From: a virus
Reading direction: 5' to 3' (one strand)
Length of the DNA stretch: 64,000 nt
Virus record (IMG/VR): IMGVR_UViG_3300028800_000073
Location: 15,825 to 79,824 of that record
Shown here: positions 24,065-37,653 of the stretch, piece by piece
Layout of the letters: every line of letters starts with the position of its first letter
How positions within the stretch are numbered: the stretch's first letter is position 1
Made by a program: the position numbers and the translations under genes
Notes under the pieces: generated by a model
Told to the model about the DNA's origin: nothing
The model's input: only the letters and a program-made list of their open reading frames with translations
Database searches by the model: none

Positions 24065-24250
24065 TTACCTTCCGTATTCATGCAGTACCCGTGTTTTAAC
24101 TAGTCGATATTCTATGACCGCCTCTGGATCTTCAATGACTACTCTACGACAGGTGGGGCAGAAGTACAAAGAAGCTACCTCATGAACCATATGCTCTTGC
24201 ATCATATCCCCACAACTACACCCCACACTGTCTTGTCCACACCGGCTCAT
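24065..24250 (-). CDS. small Zn-ribbon protein
   Basis: CSCG...FCPTC. Confidence 0.5.
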   Translation of the reverse strand: MSRCGQDSVGCSCGDMMQEHMVHEVASLYFCPTCRRVVIEDPEAVIEYRLVKTRVLHEYGR

Positions 24251-24933
24251 CGCGCCGCCGCTGCTACCGCTACTGTCTTAGGGGTGTTGAACAGTTCTAG
24301 GGACAATAGATTCAAATTAAAGTCCTTTTCTAATGACATACCCCGTAGGTACTTAGAGAACTGACTAACCATCAGACCAGCCGCGATATTGGCTGTGAAG
24401 ATGGTGGACTTAGCGGTACAACTCCCTTGGAAGGCATCCTCTGCTGCAAATAGGCTATCACCATACGAGGGGGTAACGAAGTTGTCTTCGGTCACCACGC
24501 GAATGGTCTCAGCCGACATGCGGGCGTCAATGAACACCTCAGTCTCGGGAAGCTTAGCAACCGTAGCGAAGATCTTACCTCTTGTGGTAATATCGTCGAC
24601 ACAGCAGAAATAGATATCACCCTTAACTGCGTCACAGAACCGCATGTCATGAGCCGTAGTAGCTCCGGGGTTGAGCCCCTCACAATCAACAAGAAGAGCA
24701 TCGACCTTCTTCTTACCGACGTCCCCGGGCCTAAAGCCCTGGGGACCGACATTGACGATGTCAACGGTGTCGAAATCAACGATGTTCAATTTACCGATGC
24801 CACAGGCAGATAGCTGGAGAGCTACCTGCCTGCCAATGGCGCCGACTCCAATAACAACAGCCGCAGTCGCCTTGAGATCTGCGGTTGGCAGCAAAGTAGA
24901 CTGCCTATCGAACCGTGTTGGTTCAGTAGCCAT
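24247..24933 (-). CDS. ThiF/E1-like ubiquitin-like activating enzyme (cassette 1)
   Basis: RFDRQ, VIGVGAIG, DFDTVDIVN...Q, KKKVDA, CCVD, IDARM; candidate thioester Cys in GSCTAK; no Zn CxxC pairs. Confidence 0.9.
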   Translation of the reverse strand: MATEPTRFDRQSTLLPTADLKATAAVVIGVGAIGRQVALQLSACGIGKLNIVDFDTVDIVNVGPQGFRPGDVGKKKVDALLVDCEGLNPGATTAHDMRFCDAVKGDIYFCCVDDITTRGKIFATVAKLPETEVFIDARMSAETIRVVTEDNFVTPSYGDSLFAAEDAFQGSCTAKSTIFTANIAAGLMVSQFSKYLRGMSLEKDFNLNLLSLELFNTPKTVAVAAAAR

Positions 24934-26378
24934 TAGGATTCCCCTAGCATGATTTGAGTTTCTTCTTCGCTCGCCGGCTTAGCCGGTGGAGTGCCGCAAT
25001 ACTCAATGAATGAACCACCATTCTCGATAACATCACTTTCGTCGTACATATCCTGGATCTGGAACAGAGCCGCATCAGCAGTCAGCTCGCCAGATACGAC
25101 TTTCTCAGCCAATAGCATCTCATCGTGGGTCAGGATGAGGGCATCACAGGCGTCTACGGAGCCACGTAGCTGCCATAGACAGTTAGCCCGAACCTTCTTG
25201 TACACATTCGTGACGATGTCGCCGGTAATGACGGTATCACCGTACTTCCGGGTATGCGTCAGATTGTTCATTGCTCTCTCGAAATCATCACGCTCAGCGT
25301 TGATGTTCTCTTCGAAGTCAACAAATGCCCACGCCTGACTAAACGGCAAATCGTAGAACGTCTCACCACGAGACAGCGTAAACCGCTGAGTCCCGTTTGT
25401 TACATTTATGACTTCCTTGAAACCATACTCCTTGAGATACTCTACTCTTTCTGGCGTGGAAGGCGGAACCCACTTAAGCTGCTCCATAGACCAGAGAGCG
25501 TCAACGTACGTACCCTCTGCAAGAGTGGGGGGCGTGACGCCACCTTGTTGTCTGGGAAACGGAATCGTGGACAGTGCCTCCTCCCCATGGGACTTGGCGC
25601 CAATTATGATTTCCTGAGTAATCTCCGCGACTGCGTCAGTAATCGCCTGCTGCGTCGGAGTCGTCTCCTGACGAAGAGCGAGATTCTCCCGTGCAGCAGC
25701 TCTAGCGGCCCGCTTCTGCTGCTTCTTGCTAAGAGGCATCTGCTGCTGTACCTGCTTGCCCCAGTACCCACTTGGGAGCTGTGAGCGCCCCTTGTAGCCA
25801 CCACGGGTATCTGCGTCTTCACCGTAACCACCATAGGCATAGCCCTGGACAGTAATCTTGGGGGTGATCTCTGCCTTCCACTCAGCGTGATTAGCGCCCT
25901 TGAAGTCAGTGGTAAGAGTCAGCTCCTCCTTGAGCATCATCTGGAGGTTAACATCATTGCCAAGGGATACTCGAATACGGGCATAGAGCGGGCCACCCTT
26001 AGGAAGGATAACCATCATTGCCCATGGCATGGAGCCAAAGGATTCAGCGAAAATATTCTCATCGTGCTGCGACGGATTCAGGCATCCAGACGGGTGGGTG
26101 TGGATGTAGATACGTCCAACCTGATGGGGCTTCAACTTATGCGGCCCCTCGGGGTCACAGTACTTCATGAACATGTTGTCAGCGATATCCGCTGCGTCCA
26201 TGTCAACGAATACCGTGGAACACTTCTGCTTCGGAATATACAGATCGGTAACCAAGAATGGGTCAGCCGTTTCAGCTAGACCCATGGCTCCGACTTCATG
26301 GTTATAATGATCGCAGATGAATTGGAGCTTAGCCCGAGCATACGGGGTAAACTTGAGCGTGATGCCGGTGATGTTCAT
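24933..26378 (-). CDS. JAB/MPN metallopeptidase (deubiquitinase-like) with long C-terminal extension (cassette 1)
   Basis: EVGAMG...IHTHPSGCLNPSQHD = E...HxH...SxxD JAMM motif. Confidence 0.85.
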   Translation of the reverse strand: MNITGITLKFTPYARAKLQFICDHYNHEVGAMGLAETADPFLVTDLYIPKQKCSTVFVDMDAADIADNMFMKYCDPEGPHKLKPHQVGRIYIHTHPSGCLNPSQHDENIFAESFGSMPWAMMVILPKGGPLYARIRVSLGNDVNLQMMLKEELTLTTDFKGANHAEWKAEITPKITVQGYAYGGYGEDADTRGGYKGRSQLPSGYWGKQVQQQMPLSKKQQKRAARAAARENLALRQETTPTQQAITDAVAEITQEIIIGAKSHGEEALSTIPFPRQQGGVTPPTLAEGTYVDALWSMEQLKWVPPSTPERVEYLKEYGFKEVINVTNGTQRFTLSRGETFYDLPFSQAWAFVDFEENINAERDDFERAMNNLTHTRKYGDTVITGDIVTNVYKKVRANCLWQLRGSVDACDALILTHDEMLLAEKVVSGELTADAALFQIQDMYDESDVIENGGSFIEYCGTPPAKPASEEETQIMLGES

Positions 26379-26383
26379 TGTGT

Positions 26384-28780
26384 TTATCTTGATGGGGTTT
26401 CGGATATAGCGGGTGCTGCCGTAATGAAGTCTACGTGTGCTAGCCTACAGAGCGTATCAGCAACAACCTCAATTGTAAGACCAGAACGGAAGGTACCATG
26501 GTCATTAAGAGCGCTCCTGAGCCGATGAATGGTTTCATACCAGTCAACGGATTCCCAGTCTTCGAGTTCTGAGCTATCCTCTTCAAAATCTTCATCCTTA
26601 ACAAGTACTAGATCCATGATATACGCCTGAGGCACGAAATGCTGCAACAGAGTCATCAAATAAGCTTCCCGCATACCGGGTTGGCATACCGCGTCTGATA
26701 GGCCCACTGAAGATGGGTCACAGGTCTTACAGGTCTCGGTATTCATGATCTCATCGAAGGCAACAATGGTATTGTTGAAAACAGCATCGGACAAATTTAT
26801 TTCGCCTAGTGTGGCACCACAGCTTGGGCAATTGCACCCCGGCGTTGGAGCTACTACTGGGAACGCTACAGTGGAATCCGCTTCAATAGCCGCACGTTGA
26901 GCCTCTATAACTGCACGCTGAGCCTCGCGGGCTACTCGTGCTGCCTCACGCTGAGCAGCTTCTAATGCTAGTCTAGCCTCTATCTCTTTGTTAACACAGT
27001 TCGCGCAGATACAAGTGCTGCCTTGATTACGACCGTGGTAGCGCCTGGAATCATATCTGGTATTACACGTTGCACACGGCTTGATATAGCGCTTATCAAT
27101 CGACTGTTTACTGATACCACAGACCTCAGTGCAATTCGGGCACATATGGATATCGGCATGCGGATCACGCTTCCTGGTCTCAGCGACAAGGGGCGTAGTA
27201 CAGATATCACAGCGATCCATATCGGACCAATTATCAAGACTGATATATGGCGAACGGCCATACGTCATCAAGATGCGCTCGATATATTGGAATAGATCCG
27301 CGATTAGTCCATTACGCATCAGGTTGCCAGCGGTAGCTAGACCCTCACCGAAACATAGGTGCGTACCCTCAACGTGGGGGTGCGACCAGCTTGTCCCGCG
27401 TTCACGCCTGGGGAAATGCGGGGTAAGCGCCTTAATCCTACAGACTCTATCGACATTACGCTGTGTATCTCCACAGGCATAACCGAAGTCATACGCTGCG
27501 ATGATAATAGCGAACTTATTGAACTTAATCGGGATCTTTCTATCGTCCATCAGTTCGACATCTTCGGTTACGAACTTGATACCAATGGGTGCTACTCCAT
27601 TGTCTATCATGGAACCCTCTTCATGGAACTGAAGAGCCTTGGCACGCATCAAGGTGGCGCACTCAACGATGAACCGATCAATGACGTCTTGCGACGGACG
27701 AGGCGGTTCCACGTTGTAGGGGTTCTCACCATTTTTAATGGCCAGCAATTCGTCTAGCACCTTCTTCTTCATGTCATTAGAGAAAGCTTCACGAAGAATA
27801 GTGGGCAGCTTCTGGGCACTCTCGCCGCAGCAGAACAGGCCGTGCCAATGGGCTAACACATTAGTGACGCGTTGGAAATTCCCAGCGTTACCATTTGCTG
27901 CGCCCTTCTTGAGCCCCTCTTCGTAACCGAAATAGAAGTTCTGCACTACTTTAATGAGTTTGTCTAAATCCTCGATGGCATCAGGAACTAGCCTGCGCAC
28001 CGTCGAGTCTACAGCAGTTCCCTGCTCTGTGTTCAGTGTTCTCACTTGTCTTTCCTGTGGTGTTACTACTGCAATAGCGCTTCTGTCTGATCCCGTACTA
28101 GCGAAGTCGGTACTTACGCTGAAAATTCTGGGAGCGTCGCTACTCACCATAAACATATGCGGTGGTATGCCCATAGCCCGGGTGTAGTCACTTAATGTAG
28201 CCCGCAATGGACCTTCTTCTACTACCATGTGAGCCGGAATCGGCTGGATCGGAGGCGCCATTGGTTCTAACGCCTCCTGAATAGCACGGAGACTAGCAGC
28301 CGCAGATGCAGGGCTGGGGAAGGCGCCAGTTAAGTCGCCACCGACAGTACCAACTGTATTGTTCGCCCCAGCTGCTCGCTGGCTTTCAATGGCGTGCATA
28401 ATCTCACGACCATCAGCGTTAATCTCGTCCATCACAGTATGATTAGCCGGTCTACCACGTATCGTAAAAACATCCCCGGGGCGGATCTGAGTCATTACGG
28501 GAGCGCGGCTATTATCCAGTAGAACGCGGTTGACTTCGTCTCTAAACTGTACTTCGCTTAACGGCACTGGTACTGGGCGGTTAAGTGCCCTATCTACAAT
28601 ATTTGTCGAAGCGTTATCACCGAACTGTTCTCTCCAGGCGCTCTGGCGTACCAAAAGCTCATCTAAGACATCTCGTGACATATTCGGGAATCGCTCCCGT
28701 AAATTAGGGGGATGCCTGAAATAGTCCAGAGCGTCCTGGAGCATGTCATCCGGTGAGGAAAAAGGGTTGAACTCACTCAC
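26384..28780 (-). CDS. prokaryotic E2-like conjugating enzyme fused to Cys-rich Zn-finger region (cassette 1)
   Basis: HPHVEGTHLCFGEG (HPH/N-x-C UBC-type signature), ..ILMTY..SPY..LDNW; followed by several CxxC pairs and a coiled coil. Confidence 0.75.
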   Translation of the reverse strand: MSEFNPFSSPDDMLQDALDYFRHPPNLRERFPNMSRDVLDELLVRQSAWREQFGDNASTNIVDRALNRPVPVPLSEVQFRDEVNRVLLDNSRAPVMTQIRPGDVFTIRGRPANHTVMDEINADGREIMHAIESQRAAGANNTVGTVGGDLTGAFPSPASAAASLRAIQEALEPMAPPIQPIPAHMVVEEGPLRATLSDYTRAMGIPPHMFMVSSDAPRIFSVSTDFASTGSDRSAIAVVTPQERQVRTLNTEQGTAVDSTVRRLVPDAIEDLDKLIKVVQNFYFGYEEGLKKGAANGNAGNFQRVTNVLAHWHGLFCCGESAQKLPTILREAFSNDMKKKVLDELLAIKNGENPYNVEPPRPSQDVIDRFIVECATLMRAKALQFHEEGSMIDNGVAPIGIKFVTEDVELMDDRKIPIKFNKFAIIIAAYDFGYACGDTQRNVDRVCRIKALTPHFPRRERGTSWSHPHVEGTHLCFGEGLATAGNLMRNGLIADLFQYIERILMTYGRSPYISLDNWSDMDRCDICTTPLVAETRKRDPHADIHMCPNCTEVCGISKQSIDKRYIKPCATCNTRYDSRRYHGRNQGSTCICANCVNKEIEARLALEAAQREAARVAREAQRAVIEAQRAAIEADSTVAFPVVAPTPGCNCPSCGATLGEINLSDAVFNNTIVAFDEIMNTETCKTCDPSSVGLSDAVCQPGMREAYLMTLLQHFVPQAYIMDLVLVKDEDFEEDSSELEDWESVDWYETIHRLRSALNDHGTFRSGLTIEVVADTLCRLAHVDFITAAPAISETPSR

Positions 28781-29070
28781 GTCTTCCTCGACAACTTCTC
28801 AAGCGCAGCATCTAGCCCTTTGACTCTGAACTCGCTGACATCTCCTTCATGGTTACAAAGACCACAAACGCATAGGCTATGCTCGTGAAAGTCGAATTCG
28901 GCCATGTCGACCATTATTCCTTTACTGTCAAAAATACCTACACATACGCCGCCTATCTCAAAACGAGATCTACCTCCGCATCCCGGGCAGATCAGGTCTT
29001 GGGATGTGCCCCGGTTTATGTCGTTTTTCGTTAATCTGAACTTCGTTATTACTTCATTGGGGTCATTCAT
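28777..29070 (-). CDS. Zn-ribbon protein
   Basis: CPGCG...CGLCNHEG. Confidence 0.6.
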   Translation of the reverse strand: MNDPNEVITKFRLTKNDINRGTSQDLICPGCGGRSRFEIGGVCVGIFDSKGIMVDMAEFDFHEHSLCVCGLCNHEGDVSEFRVKGLDAALEKLSRKT

Positions 29071-29864
29071 TACTTACCTACGATAGTGAACTTCTTTGCT
29101 AATTTAAGACGCTTCTGCAATGTCTCACGATCCCAACCCTGGCCCTTGGGCTTCGGCTTAGGGCTAAGCTGGAAAACCATAACCAATACACCTTCGCCAC
29201 CTACGCCTATACTAAGAGTTTCGAGATGCTTACCTACGTGTCCATTCTTATAGCAGCTGGACAACGTAAACTGAATGAAATCCTCCTCGCTCGGATTCGG
29301 AGTACCATAGTCCAGCACTGCGTTTTCTACTAACCCGGCTCTGTAGGAACTATACTTACAAGGCTTATTGAACGTTAGGAAGAGTAGCCCACCACGCTTC
29401 TTCATCATTGAAGTGAGACCTCTCTCTAATTGCCGAGCACAATCACCGTAGTCGTCGCAGGCTATAACATCGAATTTCCAGCTATCGCGATCAGCTATCT
29501 CGGCAAACTGGGCTGCCATAACTGTAAGCGCGTCGCCGTCTTCCTTGCGTCGGTTAACCATTTCAGAACAGAAGGGTCGGAAAGCCTTAGTCATCTCACC
29601 TTCCTGCCCATCATCCTTAAAAGCATGGGACTGATACAGAACTAGCCCGGATTTACCCTCCAGCCATTTTTGTATGAGTCCCTGTTTTTCGGTATGGTGC
29701 ATCGAAGGATGCCCAGTAGCCTTTTTCCATTGACGCCTGTAAATGTTAACCTTAGACAATTCCAAATTCAACTTCTCGCCAATCTCTTTGTTCGGTGCGC
29801 CGCTATGCATCATTGCAAATATTGCGTCACGAAGTTTAGTACCATCAGCTAGGCGTATAGTCAT
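29070..29864 (-). CDS. HTH protein with possible degenerate SAM-dependent methyltransferase domain
   Basis: N-terminal NKEIGEKLNLELSKVNIY HTH; KFDVIACDDYG and GGLLFLTF resemble class I MTase strands 4/5. Confidence 0.4.
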   Translation of the reverse strand: MTIRLADGTKLRDAIFAMMHSGAPNKEIGEKLNLELSKVNIYRRQWKKATGHPSMHHTEKQGLIQKWLEGKSGLVLYQSHAFKDDGQEGEMTKAFRPFCSEMVNRRKEDGDALTVMAAQFAEIADRDSWKFDVIACDDYGDCARQLERGLTSMMKKRGGLLFLTFNKPCKYSSYRAGLVENAVLDYGTPNPSEEDFIQFTLSSCYKNGHVGKHLETLSIGVGGEGVLVMVFQLSPKPKPKGQGWDRETLQKRLKLAKKFTIVGK

Positions 29865-29877
29865 GTTTTTTCCTATA

Positions 29878-29910
29878 GAAAAAGATGCCCCCGTGGGGTT
29901 ACCACGGGGG
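29878..29910 (-). terminator. intrinsic terminator after tri-Ubl gene
   Basis: Minus RNA CCCCCGUGG-UAACC-CCACGGGGG followed by CAUCUUUUU. Confidence 0.75.
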
Positions 29911-29938
29911 ACTTTGTGTTTACAGCGTACGAACTAAA

Positions 29939-30604
29939 TTAGGCGCCCTGGACCTTGAGCGGGGTGACGGAGATCTTGTCCCCGTTACGCAGCACAGTCG
30001 CAGCCGTGGAGATCTCGTTGTTCACACGAACGAGCTTGCCACGGATGTCATTCAGGCCCTGCTGAGCAAGGAACTGAGTCAGGGTGATGCCGTCAATGGT
30101 CTGAACGGAGCTGGCGAAGCCGGCACCATCGTTGTTGATGTACAGAACCTTAATGGTCTCCACGGCACCCTGGACCTTGAGCGGGGTAACCGAGACCTTA
30201 TCGCCGTTCTGGAGAACGTAACCCGCATCAGCCAGGTTGTTATTCACGCGAACCATCTTGTTGGCGATGCTGACACCACGACCCGAAATGAACGCCGCGA
30301 GCGTGGTGCCCGGGGTGAACGCAACGGAGTCAGCGAAGCCGCCGCCATCGTTGTTGATGAACAGGACCTTGCTAGCAGCAGCGGGAGCCGCGTAAGCAGG
30401 GGCCGCAGCGAACTCGATCTCAATGTAGTCACCGTGCTTAATCGTAGCGTGACCGCTTGAGGGGGTCTCGGAACGGTTAATGTAGACGGAGGAACCAGCG
30501 GGGAGGCCTAGCGCGTTGATGAGTGCATAGACCGTGATATCACCGGCGAAATCCTTGAATGCCGGGGTGCCGCCGTTGATTTCAACGTTTACTGAGATAG
30601 TCAT
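29939..30604 (-). CDS. triple beta-grasp ubiquitin-like protein (ThiS/MoaD-like x3; cassette 1 Ubl)
   Basis: Three ~70-aa repeats; repeats 2 and 3 follow VL(F/Y)INNDG.GFA...VRVNN...L.NGDK.SVTPLKVQGA; identical 20-mer at 29946-29965 and 30168-30187. Confidence 0.85.
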   Translation of the reverse strand: MTISVNVEINGGTPAFKDFAGDITVYALINALGLPAGSSVYINRSETPSSGHATIKHGDYIEIEFAAAPAYAAPAAASKVLFINNDGGGFADSVAFTPGTTLAAFISGRGVSIANKMVRVNNNLADAGYVLQNGDKVSVTPLKVQGAVETIKVLYINNDGAGFASSVQTIDGITLTQFLAQQGLNDIRGKLVRVNNEISTAATVLRNGDKISVTPLKVQGA

Positions 30605-30608
30605 TTTG

Positions 30609-32930
30609 TTATTCCTTCTTAGCTAATTTGATGGTTTGATCAAAGAAGCTGGTTAGTGATTCGGCGTGTGTAACTATTAATATCTGTCTCCCGGTACTCC
30701 CGGAAAACTGCTTTAATTTCAAGAGTAACTGTTGTAGATGAACAACGTTGCTCTCGTCTAAATGGTTCGTCGGTTCGTCGAGTATGAGTAACCCAACGGA
30801 ACGCGCAAATGTGTCAGACATCGCGAGGCGGAAGCTTGTACTTGCTACAATCTTCTGACCACCGCTTAACCGGTGAGCCGGTAGCTCAAAGCCACTACTG
30901 AACTTGGCTCTAAACGACAGGTCTGCATCCAAGTAAAATTGAAACGGGGCTTCCCAAATCGCCATATAGTGCGCCATGCGCCTATTGATCTTATTGGCGT
31001 ACTCCCGCATCATTAGAGCTGGTAATCCATTGACATGGACTACTTCTCTAGCTCGGGAACACAGTGAAGACCACTTAGCGGCATTACGCTCGTGGTCATA
31101 CTGCTTCCTAAGCTGATCAACCGTACTACGGAGCTGGATAAGCTTGGCCTCAGTAACGCCGAGCTTAGTAACTAGTTCGCTTCGAGTTTGTGTCCGCGCA
31201 GACAATATCTCAATCTTTTCTTGAGCTTCTTGTAACTCTGCTGGGGACATCTCGAACTCACTGGTACCCAGTTTAAGCACCATATCCTTGAGCCGTGCTA
31301 CCTCTGACGCACACGACGCTTGGGCTGCTTGCTTAATCTGTACCCCTGACTCCGCTTTAACTACCTGATCCTGTAGCTCCCTAAAGGCATCTACGGCCTT
31401 CTGGAGTGACTCAATTTTACCGCTATCAATGCTGGGCAACCTACTGAGTTGAGTACTGATATCGAGTAAACGATTAGTACCCTGTTTATAGGCTCCCCAT
31501 TGTGTCTCCAAAGCGGCCTTACTAGCGAGCATTTGGTCGTATTGCGGTTTCGTGGCTTCAAGCATATTTGCCACAGCCACGCAAGCCGCTTTACGACGCT
31601 CTTCTAGTTGCTCCGATATAGTACCCAAATCCCTCTGGGCAGCAGCGACTCTCATCGATTGGTCGCTCTTAATCTTAGCTATCTCAGCATGCATAGTAGC
31701 GGCACGCTGCTTGAGATCGGCATCATTGAAGTCGACAATAGGCCGGTGGCACGTTGGACAGCTACCATCGGCAAATGTCTGTAATTCGTACTGAATCCTG
31801 CGGATGTCAGCCTCGATGACCACTAGCTTGGGGTCGTCACGTTTCAGTTCTGACAACTGTTTCGTTAACCCTTCGACACGATTCGCTAGATCCCTATCCT
31901 CTTCTGTTTGGGGTAAGGGTATCTCTTTGCGAATAATGGCTTTTAACTTTGAGCGGGTCTCGGTGAGCTTATTAATGGTCTCATCGTATATAGTGATCTC
32001 AGCACCGGGCTTAACCAGTTTGGCGTCAATAGTTTGACGCTCGCTGCTCAATACATTACGTTGTGTCCAAGCTGACTTAGCTTGATCCAATTCTTTAGCC
32101 TGTTCAGCAGCTCCGGTCCGTAGAGCGGAGAAACGCTGAGCAATGATATCGTATTCCTGCTTGGCTAAACTCAGAACCTTGTCGGCCTCTATGTAGCGCT
32201 CCTGCGCCAGGGAAAGAGCCTCTTCGGTTTGCCGTTTAGCTGACGCACTCTGTTGAGCGATCCTGTAATGCCTCAGGCGCTCTTCGTACTTCGACAATCC
32301 AAGTAGTTCTTCTTCAATAACCCTGAGTTGCTCCCGGAACTCCTGTAGTTCCGTTGTAACCGTTTGTGCGGCCCCTGAAGTAACTCCGAGCTGCTCTTCT
32401 AGCCCTGGAGTGACAGTCAGAGAAGAAATCTCAGTGGACAGTAACCTGTAGACATCAGCGGCCTTGGATAAGCCGAAGGTGTCTTGGAACTCTTTGAGTC
32501 TCTCGGTATTCGTCTTAAATAGGATGTCGTCAATGGCGTGCTGAGCAATGAAGACGTTGTTGAGCAACGCATCCATTCTGGTATTGAGTAGAAGAGTCAT
32601 CTTCTCTTCTATCTCAGCCTGCCGACTAACGATGCCTCCAGGGAACTTTAATTGTTGCCGAGATGGCTCTAGTACGCGCTTGATCTCGTAACTGCTATCC
32701 CCGTGGGTGAACGCCAACGTAACTGATCCAGTACGTTCACCCACAGTGATATTTTCAGCACGAGGCCCCGACGCGACTGACTCACCGGTAACAGCAAATC
32801 GGATCGCATCGAGTAGCGACGATTTACCGCAACCATTAGGCCCCAAGATACCGGTCAAGCCTTCACTGAACCGGATATCCAAGGACTTCAGTGGCCCCCA
32901 GTTTGTCGTTTGTAGCCGCGTCAGAATCAC
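30609..32930 (-). CDS. sbcC: Rad50/SbcC-like SMC ATPase (gp46-like)
   Basis: Walker A GPNGCGKS, Q-loop FIAQ, coiled coil with CPTC zinc hook, LSGGQ signature, LILDEP, VTH. Confidence 0.93.
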   Translation of the reverse strand: MILTRLQTTNWGPLKSLDIRFSEGLTGILGPNGCGKSSLLDAIRFAVTGESVASGPRAENITVGERTGSVTLAFTHGDSSYEIKRVLEPSRQQLKFPGGIVSRQAEIEEKMTLLLNTRMDALLNNVFIAQHAIDDILFKTNTERLKEFQDTFGLSKAADVYRLLSTEISSLTVTPGLEEQLGVTSGAAQTVTTELQEFREQLRVIEEELLGLSKYEERLRHYRIAQQSASAKRQTEEALSLAQERYIEADKVLSLAKQEYDIIAQRFSALRTGAAEQAKELDQAKSAWTQRNVLSSERQTIDAKLVKPGAEITIYDETINKLTETRSKLKAIIRKEIPLPQTEEDRDLANRVEGLTKQLSELKRDDPKLVVIEADIRRIQYELQTFADGSCPTCHRPIVDFNDADLKQRAATMHAEIAKIKSDQSMRVAAAQRDLGTISEQLEERRKAACVAVANMLEATKPQYDQMLASKAALETQWGAYKQGTNRLLDISTQLSRLPSIDSGKIESLQKAVDAFRELQDQVVKAESGVQIKQAAQASCASEVARLKDMVLKLGTSEFEMSPAELQEAQEKIEILSARTQTRSELVTKLGVTEAKLIQLRSTVDQLRKQYDHERNAAKWSSLCSRAREVVHVNGLPALMMREYANKINRRMAHYMAIWEAPFQFYLDADLSFRAKFSSGFELPAHRLSGGQKIVASTSFRLAMSDTFARSVGLLILDEPTNHLDESNVVHLQQLLLKLKQFSGSTGRQILIVTHAESLTSFFDQTIKLAKKE

Positions 32931-32932
32931 GC

Positions 32933-33139
32933 TTAGTTACTCTTGATCTTCTGGGTCAAGAGAACAGCGTTACCCTCCATGAGGACGGTGCCAAGGGCGC
33001 CGACGCTGCCATTGATGCGGATGTCGAAGCCTGAGGCGTCGATACCAGCTGCTGCTAGGGCATCAGCTACCGTCTTGCCTTCCGGGAGGTTGAGGGGGCG
33101 GATGGATGAGCCAGGGAACTTGCCGATGGTGATATTCAT
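32933..33139 (-). CDS. single ubiquitin-like (beta-grasp) protein (cassette 2)
   Basis: 68 aa ITIGKFPG...LPEGKTVADALAAAGI...DIRING...L.EG..VLLTQKIKSN; adjacent to E1. Confidence 0.8.
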   Translation of the reverse strand: MNITIGKFPGSSIRPLNLPEGKTVADALAAAGIDASGFDIRINGSVGALGTVLMEGNAVLLTQKIKSN

Positions 33140-33150
33140 GTGATTCTTTC

Positions 33151-33849
33151 TTATGACCGGGTTAGGATACAGGGAGGTGTGACGCCGAAAATTGTTTCTC
33201 TTGGCATCCGTTCGACCTTAGAGGCCTTGTCGGTGTACCAATTGAACCAGTTAATGAAACTCCATACCGCTAGACCGCTAACGATCTCAGCAGTGGGGCC
33301 AACGGTAATTTGCGAACCACAAGCACTGACAACAACGACTTCTTCGTCGCCGCAGAGAGTGCCCTCCCAGAATTTGACGTCATCAGGACTCGTCGGACGC
33401 ACCGTATAGGTACGACCTAAGTCGACACCCATACGGGTCTCGAACATGACGTCGATAAATGGCTTATACCGCACGGCCCCTTCCCAGATTTCCTTTCTGG
33501 AGGACATTGTGTCGGTAAGCAAGAATACTACGGACCCCAGCGTTGTGCGGCCATTAACGGCCTCACAATGTTTGGTCACGTCTAAATTCGTCTGTGTCTT
33601 AATAAGGTCAGCTAAGGCGTCTACCTTGAACTTACCGATGTCGTTGTTGCCGTAAATCTGATTTGCGATATTGTGGGACTCGACCTTGTCGAAATCCCAG
33701 ACATGCAAATTGATAACACCGAGCTTAGCCAGACCCATGGCGATACGACTACCAGTGGCTCCGACTCCGATAACGTCAATACGGGTATTGTCGAACTTAA
33801 CCGGCGAGAATACCTTTTGGTGCCGCATGGCATCGACTAAGTTACTCAC
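33151..33849 (-). CDS. ThiF/E1-like activating enzyme (cassette 2); start revised to GTG 33849
   Basis: MRHQ, VIGVGATGS, WDFDKVESHNIANQ, KFKVDA, LLTD, FETRMG; candidate Cys in SACG. Confidence 0.9.
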   Translation of the reverse strand: MSNLVDAMRHQKVFSPVKFDNTRIDVIGVGATGSRIAMGLAKLGVINLHVWDFDKVESHNIANQIYGNNDIGKFKVDALADLIKTQTNLDVTKHCEAVNGRTTLGSVVFLLTDTMSSRKEIWEGAVRYKPFIDVMFETRMGVDLGRTYTVRPTSPDDVKFWEGTLCGDEEVVVVSACGSQITVGPTAEIVSGLAVWSFINWFNWYTDKASKVERMPRETIFGVTPPCILTRS

Positions 33850-34609
33850 CCCAGAACGTTTCTTCGCTGAATTGTCCAAAGCGACCCGACGCAGGACCAG
33901 CCTGCTGTCCGGATGCCGAGAACTCCGCATGCGTCTTCATAGGTGCCGCGTGGGGATCTACAAAGTTACTTCTCGGTGTCGGCGTTGGAGTCTGATATGG
34001 ATACGAGATCAGAGACTTATTGGCCGAATAAAACGATTCAACCAACGAGTTGACCTCTTTACCCCAGTGGCTTTTTCGGTCGCCCCCGGCAGCGTAATCG
34101 ATCTCCCAATCAATATCCTCGACTACGATGTCCATCTCGAACCAGAAGAAGTCCAACTTCATCTTGTGACGCTTGTTCACGATGCCACGGAGCACCCAGG
34201 GGTACTCGTAGTTATCGCGGAACGCCATCGTCTGGTCGTTGTCCTGACCACTGGGCAAAACGTCCATATTGACGTGGCTATGGAAATAGCCGCGCAAGTT
34301 ATTGGCACGCCACAACGCTGGATCGATACCAGCGGCCATGTCCTCAGCGATAAGCTGAGTACCTAGTGTGGATAGCCCCTCGGAAGTCAGCTCAGTGGTT
34401 GTCGAGTGAACCTGCTGCTTGAACAAATAGACGTCATCAACATAAATGACGCGCTCGCCGTTCTCTTTGACTAAACGAGCCGTGGTCAGCCAGCCGACTT
34501 CGGTACTAACAATATCAGTCAAAATCCACATATCCGTAGCCGCCCTGAGTGAGACTTTCACTCGGGGGCAGCCTAGGACGGTGGTCTGGAATGCATGTGG
34601 ATTAAACAT
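33842..34609 (-). CDS. JAB/MPN metallopeptidase (cassette 2)
   Basis: TEVGWL...YFHSHVNMDVLPSGQD JAMM motif. Confidence 0.85.
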   Translation of the reverse strand: MFNPHAFQTTVLGCPRVKVSLRAATDMWILTDIVSTEVGWLTTARLVKENGERVIYVDDVYLFKQQVHSTTTELTSEGLSTLGTQLIAEDMAAGIDPALWRANNLRGYFHSHVNMDVLPSGQDNDQTMAFRDNYEYPWVLRGIVNKRHKMKLDFFWFEMDIVVEDIDWEIDYAAGGDRKSHWGKEVNSLVESFYSANKSLISYPYQTPTPTPRSNFVDPHAAPMKTHAEFSASGQQAGPASGRFGQFSEETFWGE

Positions 34610-36351
34610 TAGAACGGCCCTTCTCCTGGAGTTCTTTCTACTTCGTCAGCATCTTCTGGTGCCCCAACTGCTACAAGCTCTTCTAAAGCAGCGGCAATAA
34701 CTTCAACAATCTCTGCACCGTCAACAGCAGTAGCCGTGCCAGTAGCGCCGGCTCCGGCATCAACAATCGTTACAGTATCAACAGCAACAGGTGGTACCGC
34801 AACAGGTGGTACCGCAACAGGTGGTACCGCAACAGGTGGTGCTTCAGCCACTGCTGGGGTTTCTTCTTCACCCTCTAGAATGCCTTCAACAACAGTCTCA
34901 ACGGTATCGACTTCAACGGGCTGCCCAGCTGCCGCTCGTGCTGCACGACGCAACTCCCGAGCTGCTTCCTTATCGATCTCCTGTTGCTTAACCGATAGCG
35001 GCCAAGCATGAACCATCTTGCCGGCGGCGTCGTCAACATTGCAGGTCTGGAGAATCGCAATCACTAGCTCGATGGCATCAGCAATCTGATATCCAGCGAC
35101 TAGCTTCGGTAGCACCTCTTCCATATTGCCGAGACACATACGCCCCGTTGGGAACACATGGGGACCATGCATATTGGGCTGCATACCAGTCACTTGGCGA
35201 TCAAGGTTGGTAACGACGATGTTGTACCGCTTGATATCGATATGAATCGACATGCGACCAACTTCGTGCTCCTTCTTCGACCGTGGATCAACTACTGTCA
35301 AAGTATTGGTGCGCACCGTAATATTACCGTTACGCATCCTGATCTGCTGGATCAACGGATTAGCCGCCAGACGATCATACTCTGCTGTGAATCGCGGAGT
35401 ACTGAAATCGGCATCATTGTCTAGTACTGCTATTTCCTTGAGGCACTGGCGTTCTTCGCGGATCCCGTCAAATACCTTCTTATTCAAGTTCGTAAGCTCG
35501 GTCTGGACCGTGTTCAGTCTATTGGTGATCTCACGGACCTGGATCTGCTTACGCTTCTCAACCATTCTGACGTAGTCCGCTCGTAGCGCTGCTGGATCAG
35601 TCTCGACGAGCTTAGCACGGGCATAGTTCTCGGCAACGTATTGAATGATCTTCTTGAAGATCTCAACTTCTCTAGGGCTATTGTTGTGACACAAGTCCGA
35701 ATAGATATAGAGGTTATTCTCATCGAAGCCTGCAATCGGTCGCTCGGGATACTCCGGGGAGCAAACGTCTATGCCCTCAGTCCATGGGACGCCATCCATT
35801 GCGTCACGGGTCTGTAACTCCATGCCCCACAGAATCCGAGGTGGATCATACGAGGGCTCGCCTCCATCTCGTGCTTCTGGAGTAGCCCACACATGAATCT
35901 TGAACATCGATTCAAGGGTATTGGGAACAATGGAACGACTATTATGTGGTACGTCGATAGTGACATCGCGCTTAATGACGGGGACCAAGATCTCACGGCA
36001 GATCTTTAGCCAGCCATCGGCTACTGGGTTACTGACAACACCACCACGGATATGACCCCAGTTAACTATACGGATCGTTGAAGGATCCCTACCGGCAACG
36101 GACGGGGTACCATCACGATAAACAATTTGAGCAACCTTTATGATAACCCCGGCAGCTTCAGCTGTTGGCGGTGTAGCAACGGTAGCGGTGATATTGTAGA
36201 GCTTACGACCAGAGCTTTCAATCTTAGCGATTAATGCTTCTCTAGCTACGAAGTGACCACCATGCTGGGGTTCACCGTAGATACGCAAGCCGATCCCACG
36301 AAGTTCTTCGCGGGACATCTCGGTTGCTTTGACAAGGACTAGTTCAGGCAT
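34609..36351 (-). CDS. prokaryotic E2-like conjugating enzyme with coiled coil and acidic low-complexity tail (cassette 2)
   Basis: HGPHVFPTGRMCLGN signature, preceded by VGRMSIHID strands and followed by helix ..IAILQTCN.DD..G....W. Confidence 0.75.
   Translation of the reverse strand: MPELVLVKATEMSREELRGIGLRIYGEPQHGGHFVAREALIAKIESSGRKLYNITATVATPPTAEAAGVIIKVAQIVYRDGTPSVAGRDPSTIRIVNWGHIRGGVVSNPVADGWLKICREILVPVIKRDVTIDVPHNSRSIVPNTLESMFKIHVWATPEARDGGEPSYDPPRILWGMELQTRDAMDGVPWTEGIDVCSPEYPERPIAGFDENNLYIYSDLCHNNSPREVEIFKKIIQYVAENYARAKLVETDPAALRADYVRMVEKRKQIQVREITNRLNTVQTELTNLNKKVFDGIREERQCLKEIAVLDNDADFSTPRFTAEYDRLAANPLIQQIRMRNGNITVRTNTLTVVDPRSKKEHEVGRMSIHIDIKRYNIVVTNLDRQVTGMQPNMHGPHVFPTGRMCLGNMEEVLPKLVAGYQIADAIELVIAILQTCNVDDAAGKMVHAWPLSVKQQEIDKEAARELRRAARAAAGQPVEVDTVETVVEGILEGEEETPAVAEAPPVAVPPVAVPPVAVPPVAVDTVTIVDAGAGATGTATAVDGAEIVEVIAAALEELVAVGAPEDADEVERTPGEGPF
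34784..34840. repeat. 15-bp tandem repeat (GCAACAGGTGGTACC x3.8) encoding PPVAV repeats
   Basis: Exact units at 34784, 34799, 34814; partial at 34829. Confidence 0.9.
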
Positions 36352-37444
36352 TGATATTTTCTCGTTTCTTAATGAGTATTTCTACTGGGTCTGAGTTTGG
36401 TTCTAAGAGATTGAGTAAGAAGCCGTGTAATTCGGACTGTTTATTGGGGTCGACTAATGTACTAAGTAATGCTGCGACAGAGATGTCATCGGTCTCTTGT
36501 GACGACTGAAGCTCCTCAGCGTCTTCGGTGTCTAGGACGGGGTCGCGGTGGATGATGGCCTTTCGTGTTTCTACGAAGCGTTTGTAGATCTCCGAAAATG
36601 AGGTATTCATTTCCGGTGAATGATGGATCCAAGCAAATGGGGGAAGTGGTCCAGCTTCCATGTCACCGCAGGCTTCGCAGAGCCAGTTGTGGACATGAGA
36701 CAGACCGATATCGTCTAAGACCGTAAAGCGTTTGATATGACGGTACGACAAGGGATGCCGGTCATAGGACAGGTCGTCGTTAATGACGACACAGCTCTTG
36801 GGTCCGATCTGCGTGATATCCCTGGCGTGACCGGGACCGGTATAACAGGCTCGGCGGTTACCGGGTAGTGTGAAGTCCATCGGTACGTGGATATCACCGA
36901 TAACAGTCAATTTACAGTTACCCGGAATCCACTCTAAATCACAGTTCCAAGCATTCTCGAAGCCCAGGGCTTGCTTGACGGCTTGGTGGAGGAACAAAAC
37001 CCTTTCTGTGCCTTCAGGATCGACTTTGTTGGCTAACCCCTCCAAGGAGGCCTTGATGTCATCTTTCGAGCTGTAATCGAACCCCAGGGCAGAGCAACCA
37101 CCTAAATCAAACGGTTCCCCGTTGCCAACGTACTTCGGCCAGTCATGGAGCGCACTGGGCCACGGAGTCTTTTGGAGGTCATGATTGCCTTGGATAAAGA
37201 ATACTGGGATCCCAGCTTCTTTGGCGCGATCCATTTGTCTTCGGTGAATCGTTACGAGATCAGAAGACGGTTTCGTAGTGTCAAAGAGATCCCCAACGAT
37301 CACTGCTGGTACCTTCAGCCCAATGGCTGCGCCAATGAAACTGCTGTAACCCAGTTCAGAGTCTCCTCTTACGGTATCTATACTACTCCAGATCTTAGGG
37401 TCTAAGTGGATGTCTCCAAGTGCTACTGCAATCGGTTTTGTCAT
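36344..37444 (-). CDS. sbcD: Mre11/SbcD-like nuclease (gp47-like)
   Basis: GDIHL, VGDLFD, QGNHD, FLHQ, GDIH, YTG. Confidence 0.9.
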   Translation of the reverse strand: MTKPIAVALGDIHLDPKIWSSIDTVRGDSELGYSSFIGAAIGLKVPAVIVGDLFDTTKPSSDLVTIHRRQMDRAKEAGIPVFFIQGNHDLQKTPWPSALHDWPKYVGNGEPFDLGGCSALGFDYSSKDDIKASLEGLANKVDPEGTERVLFLHQAVKQALGFENAWNCDLEWIPGNCKLTVIGDIHVPMDFTLPGNRRACYTGPGHARDITQIGPKSCVVINDDLSYDRHPLSYRHIKRFTVLDDIGLSHVHNWLCEACGDMEAGPLPPFAWIHHSPEMNTSFSEIYKRFVETRKAIIHRDPVLDTEDAEELQSSQETDDISVAALLSTLVDPNKQSELHGFLLNLLEPNSDPVEILIKKRENINA

Positions 37445-37473
37445 AAAGTATTGTCCAAGTTAGTGTTATACAA

Positions 37474-37653
37474 ACGTGTTCTTAATTCGAGTAAGTACTC
37501 TCTATTTTCTTTGTCTATTAGGTCATACAAAGTCTATTATATAGAGAGATATAATATACTTTCCCGCAATAAGAACACGTTTTGGGACCTACTGAAAAAT
37601 CATGTTCTTATTAATGGAAAGTATTATAATACTTTCTCGAATTAAGAACATGT
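37474..37653. repeat. AT-rich region with four 24-bp repeats in two inverted pairs (candidate origin/operator)
   Basis: Unit ~TACTTTCNCGAAWTAAGAACAYGT at 37474-97(-), 37557-80(+), 37600-23(-), 37630-53(+); perfect 20-bp palindrome 37617-37636. Confidence 0.8.

What the first reader, a model, noticed from the sequence alone, without database searches (positions are those of the whole stretch)
24247..36351. Phage carries two complete, divergent ubiquitin-like conjugation systems (Ubl-E1-E2-JAB) in one operon
Seen: cassette 1 is tri-Ubl (29939-30604), E2+Zn fingers (26384-28780), JAB (24933-26378) and E1 (24247-24933). Cassette 2 is E2 (34609-36351), JAB (33842-34609), E1 (33151-33849) and Ubl (32933-33139). 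All are co-oriented and mostly translationally coupled. Catalytic motifs look intact: GxGxxG plus a lone Cys in both E1s, HPH/PHV..C in both E2s, HxH..SxxD in both JABs. Known: bacterial Ubl-E1-E2-JAB operons exist, and some (Bil, CBASS Cap2/Cap3) are anti-phage. Inference: here the phage itself encodes two probably orthogonal protein-conjugation pathways inside its replication module. They could tag its own replisome or repair proteins, tag host defence proteins, or jam and deconjugate host Ubl defences. I do not know of a described dual viral system like this.
Basis: partly seen in the sequence, partly recalled or inferred. Interest (0 to 1): 0.93.

Follow-up and report, generated by a model that had tools for sequence, protein, structure and literature searches.

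The report
Phage with two ubiquitin-like tagging kits
A large uncultured soil phage carries two separate, divergent gene sets for attaching a small ubiquitin-like tag to proteins (tag, activating enzyme, carrier enzyme, trimming protease), a machinery studied so far in bacteria mainly as anti-phage defence; what the phage tags is unknown.

Summary
All eight ORFs exist as stated, on the minus strand of a viral contig, a 79.8-kb fragment of a roughly 180-190-kb phage.

Support for each component:
- **E1:** both are ThiF-family (Pfam E 2e-21 and 5e-16).
- **JAB:** both carry the exact JAMM motif E..HxHx7SxxD. Their profile hits only JAMM proteases in the PDB.
- **Ubl:** the profile hits SAMP2 and ThiS (E 1e-5).
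- **E2-1:** its core folds with pLDDT 87. The best PDB matches are E2/UEV domains at modest scores (Z 5-7).
- **E2-2:** it shares that core with E2-1 (hhalign probability 97%).

The whole layout is conserved in at least four other phage records, including a complete 180-kb genome with terminal repeats. The order is Mre11, cassette 2, Rad50, Ubl, E2-1, JAB-1, E1-1, helicase.

Cassette 1 belongs to a large family with no Pfam model, defined by an E2 fused to a zinc-finger array and a minimal E1. It occurs in phages and, by an ESM Atlas lead, in Planctomycetota.

- It is not one operon; a strong terminator follows the tri-Ubl gene.
- The E1s do not have a "lone" Cys.
- Ubl-2 has no C-terminal Gly in this phage.

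Function and targets are unknown. This scan has already reported the same dual cassettes on related phage DNA. I found no paper describing them.

The parts
36344..37444 (-). Mre11/SbcD-like nuclease. It is the upstream neighbour of cassette 2 and overlaps E2-2 by 8 nt.
   Evidence: Pfam Metallophos E 4e-7. 72% identical to the orthologue in L001.
34609..36351 (-). E2-2 (580 aa). It has an N-terminal alpha/beta region, a long helix, a UBC-like core at about residues 318-445 with HGPHV..GRMC406, and an acidic, Pro-rich tail.
   Evidence: No Pfam, PADLOC or PHROG hit. hhalign against the E2-Zn family gives probability 97%, E 1e-10, over residues 335-442. The motif is invariant in five relatives. 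The AF2 model is poor (pLDDT 57), but the order of secondary-structure elements fits UBC.
33842..34609 (-). JAB-2 (255 aa), a JAMM/MPN+ metalloprotease candidate.
   Evidence: Carries EVG..HSHVNMDVLPSGQD. Pfam Prok-JAB is weak, E 0.044. hhalign against the JAB-1 family gives probability 88.6%, E 2.6e-6, over 165 columns.
33151..33849 (-). E1-2 (232 aa), a minimal single-domain ThiF-type adenylating enzyme.
   Evidence: Pfam ThiF E 5e-16. 89% identical to the L001 orthologue. Carries the invariant Cys and the nucleotide-binding residues.
32933..33139 (-). Ubl-2 (68 aa), a beta-grasp protein ending ..KIKSN with no Gly.
   Evidence: Aligns with the other Ubl units, and the joint profile hits SAMP2 (E 1.3e-5) and ThiS. 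Orthologues end ..VKG|NEFEIRIKTR and ..KIKG|N+17 residues.
30609..32930 (-). Rad50/SbcC-like ATPase, lying between the two Ubl genes.
   Evidence: Pfam SMC_N E 5e-20 and AAA_23.
29939..30604 (-). Tri-Ubl (221 aa), the modifier of cassette 1. Units 2 and 3 both end TPLKVQG|A.
   Evidence: Single Ubls of the same type (..INNDGxGF....TPxKVxG|A) stand directly before the E2-Zn gene in L002 and L004.
29888..29910 (-). Terminator-like hairpin (9 bp, 8 of them G-C, followed by a T-run) directly after the tri-Ubl gene.
29070..29864 (-). p264, with an HTH-like N-terminus and a class-I methyltransferase-like fold. It is probably a passenger gene, not a cassette component.
   Evidence: ESM Atlas structure neighbours are TRM/Trm5 and class I methyltransferases at TM about 0.5; this is a lead only. 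The gene is absent between the Ubl and E2-1 genes in G003 and L016.
28777..29070 (-). p97, a small protein with a CxxC..CxxC zinc-ribbon-like pattern. Its role is unknown.
   Evidence: The sequence is. 49% identical to the L001 orthologue. No family hit.
26384..28780 (-). E2-1 (798 aa). It has a UBC-like core (about residues 365-520, HPHVEGTHLC476), an array of CxxC zinc knuckles, a coiled coil, further CxxC pairs and a C-terminal domain.
   Evidence: AF2 on residues 270-640 with a 145-sequence alignment gives pLDDT 87 and pTM 0.68. The six top-ranked rows of a search of 48,161 chains are E2 enzymes, e.g. UBE2S Z 6.8, rmsd 3.5 A, 124 residues aligned. 49 of 50 second-look rows are E2 or UEV. 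H-P and C..G are invariant in 145 sequences.
24933..26378 (-). JAB-1 (481 aa), with an N-terminal JAMM domain and a conserved C-terminal domain of unknown function.
   Evidence: Carries EVG..HTHPSGCLNPSQHD. E28, H93, H95, S103 and D106 are invariant in four members that are 32-39% identical. The profile hits only JAMM proteases in the PDB: Rpn11-like 6fjv at E 0.036, then AMSH and STAMBP.
24247..24933 (-). E1-1 (228 aa), a minimal ThiF-type E1.
   Evidence: Pfam ThiF E 2e-21. The E1 profile hits ThiF at E 8e-18, then PaaA, UBA6, MoeB, MccB, UBA5, BubCD and Cap2.

Best explanation
The phage encodes two independent ubiquitin-like protein-conjugation pathways.

Proposed pathway, the same in each cassette:
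1. A small ThiF-type E1, presumably a homodimer, adenylates the C-terminus of its own beta-grasp Ubl.
2. The Ubl passes as a thioester to the invariant Cys of a UBC-fold E2. It may first pass through the invariant E1 Cys.
3. The Ubl is then joined to a target amine.
4. A JAMM protease trims the Ubl precursor (..G|A in cassette 1, ..[G/S]|N in cassette 2) and can probably also remove conjugates.

How the cassettes differ:
- Cassette 1 (tri-Ubl, E2-1, JAB-1, E1-1) is a member of a widespread, uncatalogued four-gene family. Its E2 is fused to a zinc-finger array that may act as a built-in substrate-binding or E3-like module.
- Cassette 2 (E2-2, JAB-2, E1-2, Ubl-2) is a remote sister set without zinc fingers. 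It is fixed between the Mre11 and Rad50 genes in this phage clade.

Shown and inferred:
- Shown here: gene content, folds and motifs, homology, conservation, and viral carriage.
- Inferred: every chemical step, the pairing of each Ubl with its enzymes (based on adjacency and on the compact relatives), and any biological role.

My best guess for the role is modification of phage or host proteins during early and middle infection. This could be counter-defence, or control of DNA-end processing and replication. I think exclusion of competing phages is less likely.
For: Component identities:
- E1: Pfam ThiF for both and PDB E1-family hits.
- JAB: exact JAMM motifs, twice in frame against 0.38 expected. 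The catalytic residues are invariant. PDB hits are JAMM-only. JAB-1 versus JAB-2 by hhalign gives 88.6%.
- Ubl: the profile hits SAMP2, PF1061, ThiS and RnfH.
- E2-1: a confident model whose best PDB neighbours are E2/UEV domains, with HP.H..C.G invariant in 145 sequences.
- E2-2: homologous to the same core.

Conservation:
- The same eleven genes are syntenic in G001 at 36-89% identity.
- The same layout occurs in the complete 180,134-bp, terminal-repeat-bounded phage G003, in G004 and in L016. Catalytic motifs are intact at 22-53% identity to the window proteins in G003.
- Compact Ubl-E2Zn-JAB-E1 operons occur in an unrelated viral contig (L004) and in a metagenome contig (L002). This fixes which Ubl type goes with the zinc-finger E2.
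- 696 cluster representatives match the E2-1 profile.

Processing sites are conserved as G|A, G|AVC, G|AK, G|AGSRN, G|N and G|NEFEIRIKTR.
Against: - No biochemical or expression data exist. No RNA run was listed.
- The E2 fold matches are only middling (Z 5-7; Foldseek on the PDB gave nothing at E<=1e-3).
- The E2-2 model is poor.
- No sequence-level link to any catalogued E2 family was found (Pfam, PADLOC, PHROGs, PDB).
- Ubl-2 in this phage has no C-terminal Gly.
- The internal 'polyubiquitin' site is not conserved in G003, and L016 has a single Ubl.
- Nothing identifies a target.
Confidence: 0.72

Rival explanations
1. The cassettes are anti-phage defence modules, Bil-like in logic, captured from bacteria and carried by the phage to exclude competing phages. 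They would do this by tagging the structural or replication proteins of the competitor.
For: Characterised bacterial Ubl-E1-E2-JAB systems (Bil, type II CBASS) are anti-phage defences (PMC11601596; 10.1101/2023.09.26.559546). The nearest ESM Atlas cluster to the E2-Zn family is mostly bacterial, with Planctomycetota commonest (a lead only). The same four-gene module occurs in an unrelated viral contig, L004.
Against: - The cassettes are embedded in the core replication block of an apparently lytic-type large phage and are kept in place across deep divergence. Defence cargo is usually found in variable accessory islands.
- A phage would also have to avoid tagging its own proteins.
- None of the eight cassette proteins except the two E1s matches a PADLOC model.
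Confidence: 0.15
2. These are sulfur-carrier or cofactor-type systems like ThiS/MoaD with ThiF/MoeB, or peptide-adenylating systems like MccB and PaaA. On this reading the 'E2' proteins are scaffolds, not carriers.
For: The E1s are closest in sequence to ThiF, PaaA, MoeB and MccB. The Ubl profile hits ThiS and MoaD relatives. Ubl-2 ends in Asn, the residue MccB acts on (the latter from my own knowledge).
Against: - There is no rhodanese, cysteine desulfurase, ThiG, MoaE or exporter gene nearby.
- Both cassettes keep a UBC-like protein with an invariant Cys and a JAMM protease. Neither is needed for sulfur transfer.
- Relatives of Ubl-2 carry Gly followed by a propeptide, as conjugated Ubls do.
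Confidence: 0.07
3. One cassette, or both, is a decaying remnant or a non-catalytic decoy. It might, for example, bind and jam host Ubl defence enzymes without conjugating anything itself.
For: Ubl-2 lacks the terminal Gly in this phage. E2-2 has G in place of the first His of HPH. E2-1 has diverged quickly (36% identity to G001).
Against: All catalytic residues of E1, E2 and JAB are intact in five or more phages at 22-59% identity. There are no frameshifts or stop codons in the window genes.
Confidence: 0.06

Closest known systems
Bil (BilABCD, Type I/II; class 6d of Iyer, Burroughs and Aravind 2006, PMC1779556; Chambers et al. 10.1101/2023.09.26.559546)
   Same: Four separate genes encode a Ubl, an E2, a JAB/JAMM peptidase and an E1. 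The JAB pre-processes the Ubl to expose a C-terminal Gly. Some Bil Ubls have three beta-grasp domains (PMC11601603).
   Different: - Bil E1 is multidomain (IAD-AAD-CYS), whereas the E1 here is a single ThiF domain of about 230 aa.
- Bil E2 lacks the classical His (PMC1779556), whereas the HP[H] motif is kept here.
- There is no CEHH helical protein here.
- E2-1 carries a zinc-finger array.
- No sequence-level match to PDB Bil chains appeared in the profile searches.
- The system here is carried by a phage and is present twice.
Bub operons (Type I/II, formerly 6E/DUF6527; PMC11601596)
   Same: E1, E2 and a multi-beta-grasp Ubl, with cleavage by a peptidase at a conserved Gly. BubCD appears among the PDB hits of the E1 profile (E 2.5e-11).
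   Different: Bub works through Tyr and Ser oxyesters and has no catalytic Cys. It has the BubE (DUF6527) serine protease and a JAB-E1 fusion. Here both E2s and all E1s keep an invariant Cys, the JAB is a separate gene, and there is no DUF6527.
Type II CBASS Cap2/Cap3
   Same: E1 and E2 chemistry together with a JAB that trims or deconjugates. PADLOC E1-E2 models hit both E1s.
   Different: Cap2 is an E2-E1 fusion that conjugates a CD-NTase, not a Ubl. There is no CD-NTase or effector here. The PADLOC hits cover only the E1 part.
Archaeal SAMP / UbaA / JAMM1 system
   Same: A small ThiS/MoaD-like beta-grasp modifier (best PDB hit SAMP2, E 1.3e-5), a single-domain E1, and a JAMM protease (best PDB hit an archaeal Rpn11-like protein).
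   Different: The SAMP system has no E2. Both cassettes here have a UBC-like protein with an invariant Cys.
Lambdoid and T1 phage tail-assembly Ubl (TAPI) with a JAB-NlpC protein (TAPK) (PMC1779556)
   Same: A phage-encoded Ubl paired with a JAB.
   Different: That system has no E1 or E2 and sits in the tail module, not the replication module.

Membership tests
E1-like (ThiF/MoeB/UBA) adenylating enzymes | Rossmann-type ThiF domain with a GxGxxG loop, acidic and Lys ATP-binding residues, and an N-terminal Arg | tested here: met
   Pfam ThiF above the cut-off for both. PDB profile hit to ThiF at E 8e-18. G34, D53/D55, K76, D113 and R138 are invariant.
E1-like (ThiF/MoeB/UBA) adenylating enzymes | A catalytic Cys that forms the E1~Ubl thioester | tested here: inconclusive
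   One Cys (C172 of E1-1) is invariant in five E1s from both cassettes. Its position relative to the crossover loop was not checked on a structure.
UBC-fold E2 conjugating enzymes | UBC fold: an N-terminal helix, a four-stranded sheet, the active-site loop and the following helices | tested here: met
   E2-1 core model has pLDDT 87. The six top-ranked rows against 48,161 chains are E2s, at Z 6.0-6.8, rmsd 3.5-4.6 A and 118-124 residues aligned. 49 of 50 second-look rows are E2 or UEV. These Z values are middling, so support for the fold is moderate. E2-2 is assigned only by hhalign to the same core (97%).
UBC-fold E2 conjugating enzymes | An HPN-like motif followed 7-8 residues later by the catalytic Cys | tested here: met
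   E2-1 has HPHVEGTHLC and E2-2 has (H)GPHVFPTGRMC. H-P, C and G are invariant in 145 sequences, and the motif is invariant in five E2-2 relatives. Equivalence of the Cys to the E2 catalytic Cys on the model was not checked residue by residue.
UBC-fold E2 conjugating enzymes | Sequence membership in a catalogued E2 family (Pfam UQ_con or Prok-E2_A to E) | tested here: not met
   No Pfam hit for E2-1, E2-2 or 30 family members, even at E up to 10 or 0.01. No E2 appears among the PDB sequence-profile hits.
JAB/JAMM (MPN+) metallopeptidases | The E ... HxHx7Sx2D zinc site | tested here: met
   The exact motif is present in both and is invariant across members. PDB profile hits are JAMM-only. Pfam Prok-JAB is below the cut-off (14-20 bits against 25).
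Beta-grasp ubiquitin-like modifiers (ThiS/MoaD/SAMP type) | A beta-grasp domain that ends, after processing, in a flexible tail with a C-terminal Gly | tested here: inconclusive
   The profile hits SAMP2 at E 1.3e-5 and ThiS at E 6e-4. The tri-Ubl units end ..KVQG|A. Ubl-2 in this phage ends ..KIKSN and has Ser where relatives have Gly.
Bil (BilABCD) systems | Multidomain E1 (IAD-AAD-CYS), an E2 lacking the classical His, and often a CEHH protein | tested here: not met
   The E1s are 228-232 aa with a single domain. The E2s keep the HP[H] motif. No extra conserved helical gene is present in the compact relatives L002 and L004. The Bil features are taken from PMC11601596, 10.1101/2023.09.26.559546 and PMC1779556.
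Bub systems | A Cys-less E1 and E2 (Tyr/Ser oxyesters) and a DUF6527 protease | tested here: not met
   An invariant Cys is present in E1 and E2. No DUF6527 hit in Pfam scans of the region.

The most novel reading that the evidence does not exclude
A clade of large soil phages runs two mutually orthogonal ubiquitin-like conjugation pathways of its own during infection. One pathway is hard-wired to the Mre11-Rad50 genes. Its modifier in this lineage is activated at a non-glycine C-terminus (Ser after trimming, or untrimmed Asn). That pathway would tag phage or host DNA-end-processing or defence proteins, while the zinc-finger E2 of the other acts as a combined E2/E3. If so, this would be a virus-run, bacterial-world counterpart of eukaryotic ubiquitin and SUMO control of DNA repair, with new E1 substrate chemistry.
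Probability: 0.12. Interest if true: 0.9.

Novelty: new variant of a known kind. Interest (0 to 1): 0.72.

Why it matters
Prokaryotic ubiquitin-like conjugation has been characterised as a bacterial weapon against phages (Bil, type II CBASS). Here the virus owns the machinery, in two diverged copies, kept for a long time inside its replication and repair genes.

- If active, it would show that phages use protein tagging offensively or for self-regulation.
- It would add a large uncatalogued E2 family, a UBC core fused to a zinc-finger array and paired with a minimal E1, to the known range of Ubl systems.
- It would give a compact, tractable four-gene system for biochemistry.
- The non-Gly end of Ubl-2 and the fixed position between Mre11 and Rad50 are concrete, testable oddities.

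Tried and rejected
**Searches that gave nothing**
- Megablast of 24 kb against GenBank phages: no match.
- tblastn of E2-1 relatives and an E2-Zn member against GenBank phages and PLSDB plasmids: no match.
- Rad50 against phages: only two remote hits.
- The search for homologous proteins for E2-1 found only itself, and for the JAB-1 domain found nothing. I attribute this to the word prefilter.
- Two genome-contig scans found nothing, so I could not survey cellular genomes or test the Planctomycetota lead.
- Alignments A7 and A9 were too diverse for the search for related loci.
- No tRNA genes in the window.
- Sigma-70-like promoters are not enriched.

I could therefore not read the 190-kb Logan and NCBI contigs that hold P0004, P0007 and P0008.

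**Weak or uninformative results**
- The whole-protein AF2 model of E2-2 was poor. Its fold search returned only coiled-coil matches and is uninformative.
- Foldseek against the PDB for the E2-1 core gave nothing at E<=1e-3.
- Two-sequence JAB profiles gave no JAMM hit in the PDB. The four-sequence profile did.
- No RNA holder was listed for the region. The DNA is found in rhizosphere metagenome runs at word shares of 0.07-0.40, and I did not lay the reads.

**Idea demoted**
- I considered that the C-terminal Asn of Ubl-2 is the activated residue, as in MccB chemistry. Relatives show Gly-Asn followed by a propeptide, so cleavage before the Asn is the simpler reading.

**Literature**
- Searches and readings of PMC1779556, PMC7824862, PMC11601596, PMC11601603 and 10.1101/2023.09.26.559546 found no description of phage-encoded complete Ubl-E1-E2-JAB sets.
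- The preprint 10.1101/2021.07.29.454249 notes only ThiF-like genes in Asgard viruses.

Full report
**What is there**

The window is bases 15825-79824 of a single 79,824-bp virus record. It is densely packed with genes, almost all on the minus strand. PHROGs and Pfam identify the following:
- a family-A DNA polymerase with a UDG-like N-terminal domain;
- a primase, a DnaB-like helicase and an SF2 helicase;
- a UvsX-like recombinase and an RNA ligase;
- a large terminase subunit.

No cultured phage is close. Megablast finds nothing, and Rad50 finds only two remote hits. Relatives include a complete 180,134-bp IMG/VR genome with direct terminal repeats, and 57-66-kb fragments that CheckV rates 32-36% complete. 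The window therefore comes from a phage of about 180-190 kb. Its DNA occurs in rhizosphere metagenome runs.

**Gene order**

On the minus strand, in order of transcription:
1. Mre11 (36344-37444)
2. E2-2 (34609-36351)
3. JAB-2 (33842-34609)
4. E1-2 (33151-33849)
5. Ubl-2 (32933-33139)
6. Rad50 (30609-32930)
7. tri-Ubl (29939-30604)
8. terminator-like hairpin (29910-29888)
9. p264 (29070-29864)
10. p97 (28777-29070)
11. E2-1 (26384-28780)
12. JAB-1 (24933-26378)
13. E1-1 (24247-24933)
14. a 61-aa ORF
15. helicase

Neighbouring genes overlap by 1-8 nt or lie 2-11 nt apart, except at the hairpin.

**E1**

- Both E1s are clear ThiF-family proteins (Pfam E 2e-21 and 5e-16) and are 28% identical to each other.
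- A five-sequence E1 profile hits ThiF (E 8e-18), PaaA, UBA6, MoeB, MccB, UBA5, BubCD and Cap2.
- The nucleotide-binding residues and one Cys are invariant across both cassettes.

**JAB**

- Both candidates carry E-V-G upstream of an exact H-x-H-x7-S-x2-D motif.
- That motif occurs three times in all six frames of the window, against 0.38 expected from shuffles. Two of the three lie in frame in these genes.
- Pfam Prok-JAB matches are sub-threshold.
- In a four-member alignment at 32-39% identity, all JAMM residues are invariant.
- The profile of that alignment hits only JAMM proteases in the PDB, although weakly: Rpn11-like 6fjv at E 0.036, then AMSH and STAMBP.
- JAB-2 is homologous to this family by hhalign (probability 88.6%, E 2.6e-6, 165 columns).

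**Ubl**

- The three units of the 221-aa protein, Ubl-2 and the single Ubls of relatives all align.
- Their joint profile hits SAMP2 (E 1.3e-5), PF1061, ThiS (E 6e-4) and RnfH.

**E2, the crux**

Neither candidate matches any Pfam, PADLOC or PHROG model.
- A full HMMER search with the E2-1 profile found 696 cluster representatives. Most are proteins of about 340 aa that share a core motif..THPHV....LC.G.G...TYN..SPYV.L..W.., followed by many CxxC pairs.
- Thirty of these also lack any Pfam family.
- With 145 sequences as the alignment, AlphaFold2 modelled E2-1 residues 270-640 at pLDDT 87 and pTM 0.68.
- Foldseek against the PDB gave nothing at E<=1e-3, although RWD, UEV and E2 domains crowd the weak list.
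- An exhaustive VIA-align search of 48,161 chains put six E2 enzymes on top. UBE2S had Z 6.8, rmsd 3.5 A and 124 of 151 residues aligned, covering model residues about 91-252.
- A second look gave E2 or UEV domains in 49 of 50 rows, with Z 5.1-6.8.
- These Z values are middling, so the fold alone is moderate evidence.
- The fold evidence is backed by the H-P-[H] motif and by a Cys 7 residues after its last His. H-P, C and G are invariant in all 145 sequences. Together these make the E2 reading well supported.
- E2-2 has (H)GPHVFPTGRMC and is invariant in five relatives. It aligns to the same core by hhalign (probability 97%, E 1e-10). Its own AF2 model was poor.
- BFVD holds several unnamed viral proteins with the same fold (E 4e-5 to 7e-4).

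**Which Ubl goes with which enzymes**

- In two compact relatives, a single Ubl of the ..INNDGxGF...TPxKVxG|A type stands directly before E2-Zn, JAB and a minimal E1. These are metagenome contig L002 and the unrelated 56-kb viral contig L004.
- The tri-Ubl therefore belongs to cassette 1, although Rad50-side transcription and a terminator separate it from E2-1 here.
- In the window and in G001 a methyltransferase-like gene (ESM Atlas lead) and a zinc-ribbon gene are wedged in between. In G003 and L016 the Ubl gene abuts E2-1, so these two genes are probably passengers.

**Conservation**

- G001 has all eleven genes in the same order at 36-89% identity, plus E1-1 at 77%.
- G003 (complete, 180 kb), G004 and L016 (179 kb) have the layout Mre11, E2-2, JAB-2, E1-2, Ubl-2, Rad50, Ubl(s), E2-1.
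- In G003 the layout continues with JAB-1, E1-1 and the helicase.
- G003's proteins are 22-53% identical to the window's, and catalytic motifs are intact in G003 and L016.
- P0004 (E2-2-like) and P0007 (E2-1-like) both come from a 190,063-bp contig.
- Remoter phages with recognisable Mre11 have it abutting Rad50 with no cassette between them (L022, L024, L025).
- Cassette 2 is therefore an old insertion that this clade has kept in place.

**Oddities**

- *Ubl-2 C-terminus.* It ends ..KIKSN in the window and G001..VKG-NEFEIRIKTR in G003, and ..KIKG-N plus 17 residues in L016. The simplest reading is JAB-2 cleavage before the Asn. In the window phage this would leave a C-terminal Ser instead of Gly.
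- *Tri-Ubl internal junction.* It is ..KV[QE]G|A here but ..NIKA|A in G003, and L016 has one Ubl. Polyubiquitin-like internal cleavage is therefore uncertain.

**Comparison with known systems**

- By gene content the nearest is Bil (class 6d of PMC1779556). However, Bil has a multidomain E1, an E2 without the classical His, and often a CEHH protein (PMC11601596; 10.1101/2023.09.26.559546). None of these apply here.
- Bub uses Cys-less oxyester chemistry and a DUF6527 protease (PMC11601596), which also does not apply.
- Cap2 is an E2-E1 fusion that acts on a CD-NTase.
- The SAMP system lacks an E2.
- The system here therefore works like a Ubl conjugation pathway but is not a member of any of these families.
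- I found no paper on complete phage-encoded sets. The jumbo-phage survey PMC7824862 does not mention them.

**Earlier notes of this scan**

The same zinc-finger-E2 cassette has already been reported on several other phage genomes (e.g. e1-5934198, e1-5811464). The same dual arrangement around Rad50 has been reported on 180-kb and 191-kb relatives (e1-5771257, e1-5771272, e1-5802959, e1-5802967). My results were reached independently before I read these notes, and they agree.

One note says the sets are movable cargo in variable junctions. Within the clade I sampled, the position is fixed.

**Function**

No step of the chemistry, and no target, is shown here.

I rank the readings as follows:
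1. Active conjugation pathways used by the phage on host or phage proteins, for counter-defence or for control of DNA-end processing and replication.
2. Captured defence modules used for exclusion of other phages.
3. Sulfur-carrier or peptide-adenylation chemistry.
4. Decoys or remnants.

Noticed in passing
window 29888-29910 (minus strand): Strong hairpin (9 bp, 8 of them G-C) followed by a T-run, directly after the tri-Ubl stop codon. It would end or attenuate the Mre11-to-tri-Ubl transcript and could set a high ratio of Ubl to enzymes.
   Followed up: partly
window 34609-35000 (C-terminal tail of E2-2): The tail contains four tandem PPVAV repeats and an Ala/Gly/Thr/Glu-rich stretch of about 75 residues. 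This stretch is absent from all four relatives. It looks like a recent low-complexity expansion.
   Followed up: no
window 15861-18959 (minus strand): The family-A DNA polymerase (1032 aa) carries an N-terminal uracil-DNA-glycosylase-superfamily domain (Pfam UDG, E 2e-7) ahead of the 3'-5' exonuclease and polymerase domains.
   Followed up: no
window 29070-29864 and 28777-29070 (minus strand): A 264-aa protein with an HTH-like N-terminus and a class-I methyltransferase-like fold (ESM Atlas lead, TM about 0.5), and a 97-aa protein with a CxxC..CxxC pattern. Both sit inside cassette 1 here and in G001, but not in G003 or L016.
   Followed up: partly
L002 3280-3330: The E1 gene of the compact metagenome cassette is split between two frames at a short duplicated GGCAGGT stretch. 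This is probably an assembly or sequencing error and not a pseudogene.
   Followed up: partly
L004 4770-5141: The unrelated viral contig that carries the compact Ubl-E2Zn-JAB-E1 cassette encodes a protein about 1.3 kb upstream whose sequence looks, by eye, like a response-regulator receiver domain (MKILVVEDND...).
   Followed up: no
window 37472-38358: Earlier first-reader notes (e1-6091492, e1-6091503) report iteron-like repeats in the AT-rich gap upstream of Mre11. I did not examine them. The adjacent 238-aa ORF has a homologue in the same position in G003.
   Followed up: no
L016 15722-15991: The 179-kb relative has a single 89-aa Ubl ending ..NPEG|N in place of the tri-Ubl. The number of Ubl units in cassette 1 therefore varies within the clade.
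   Followed up: partly
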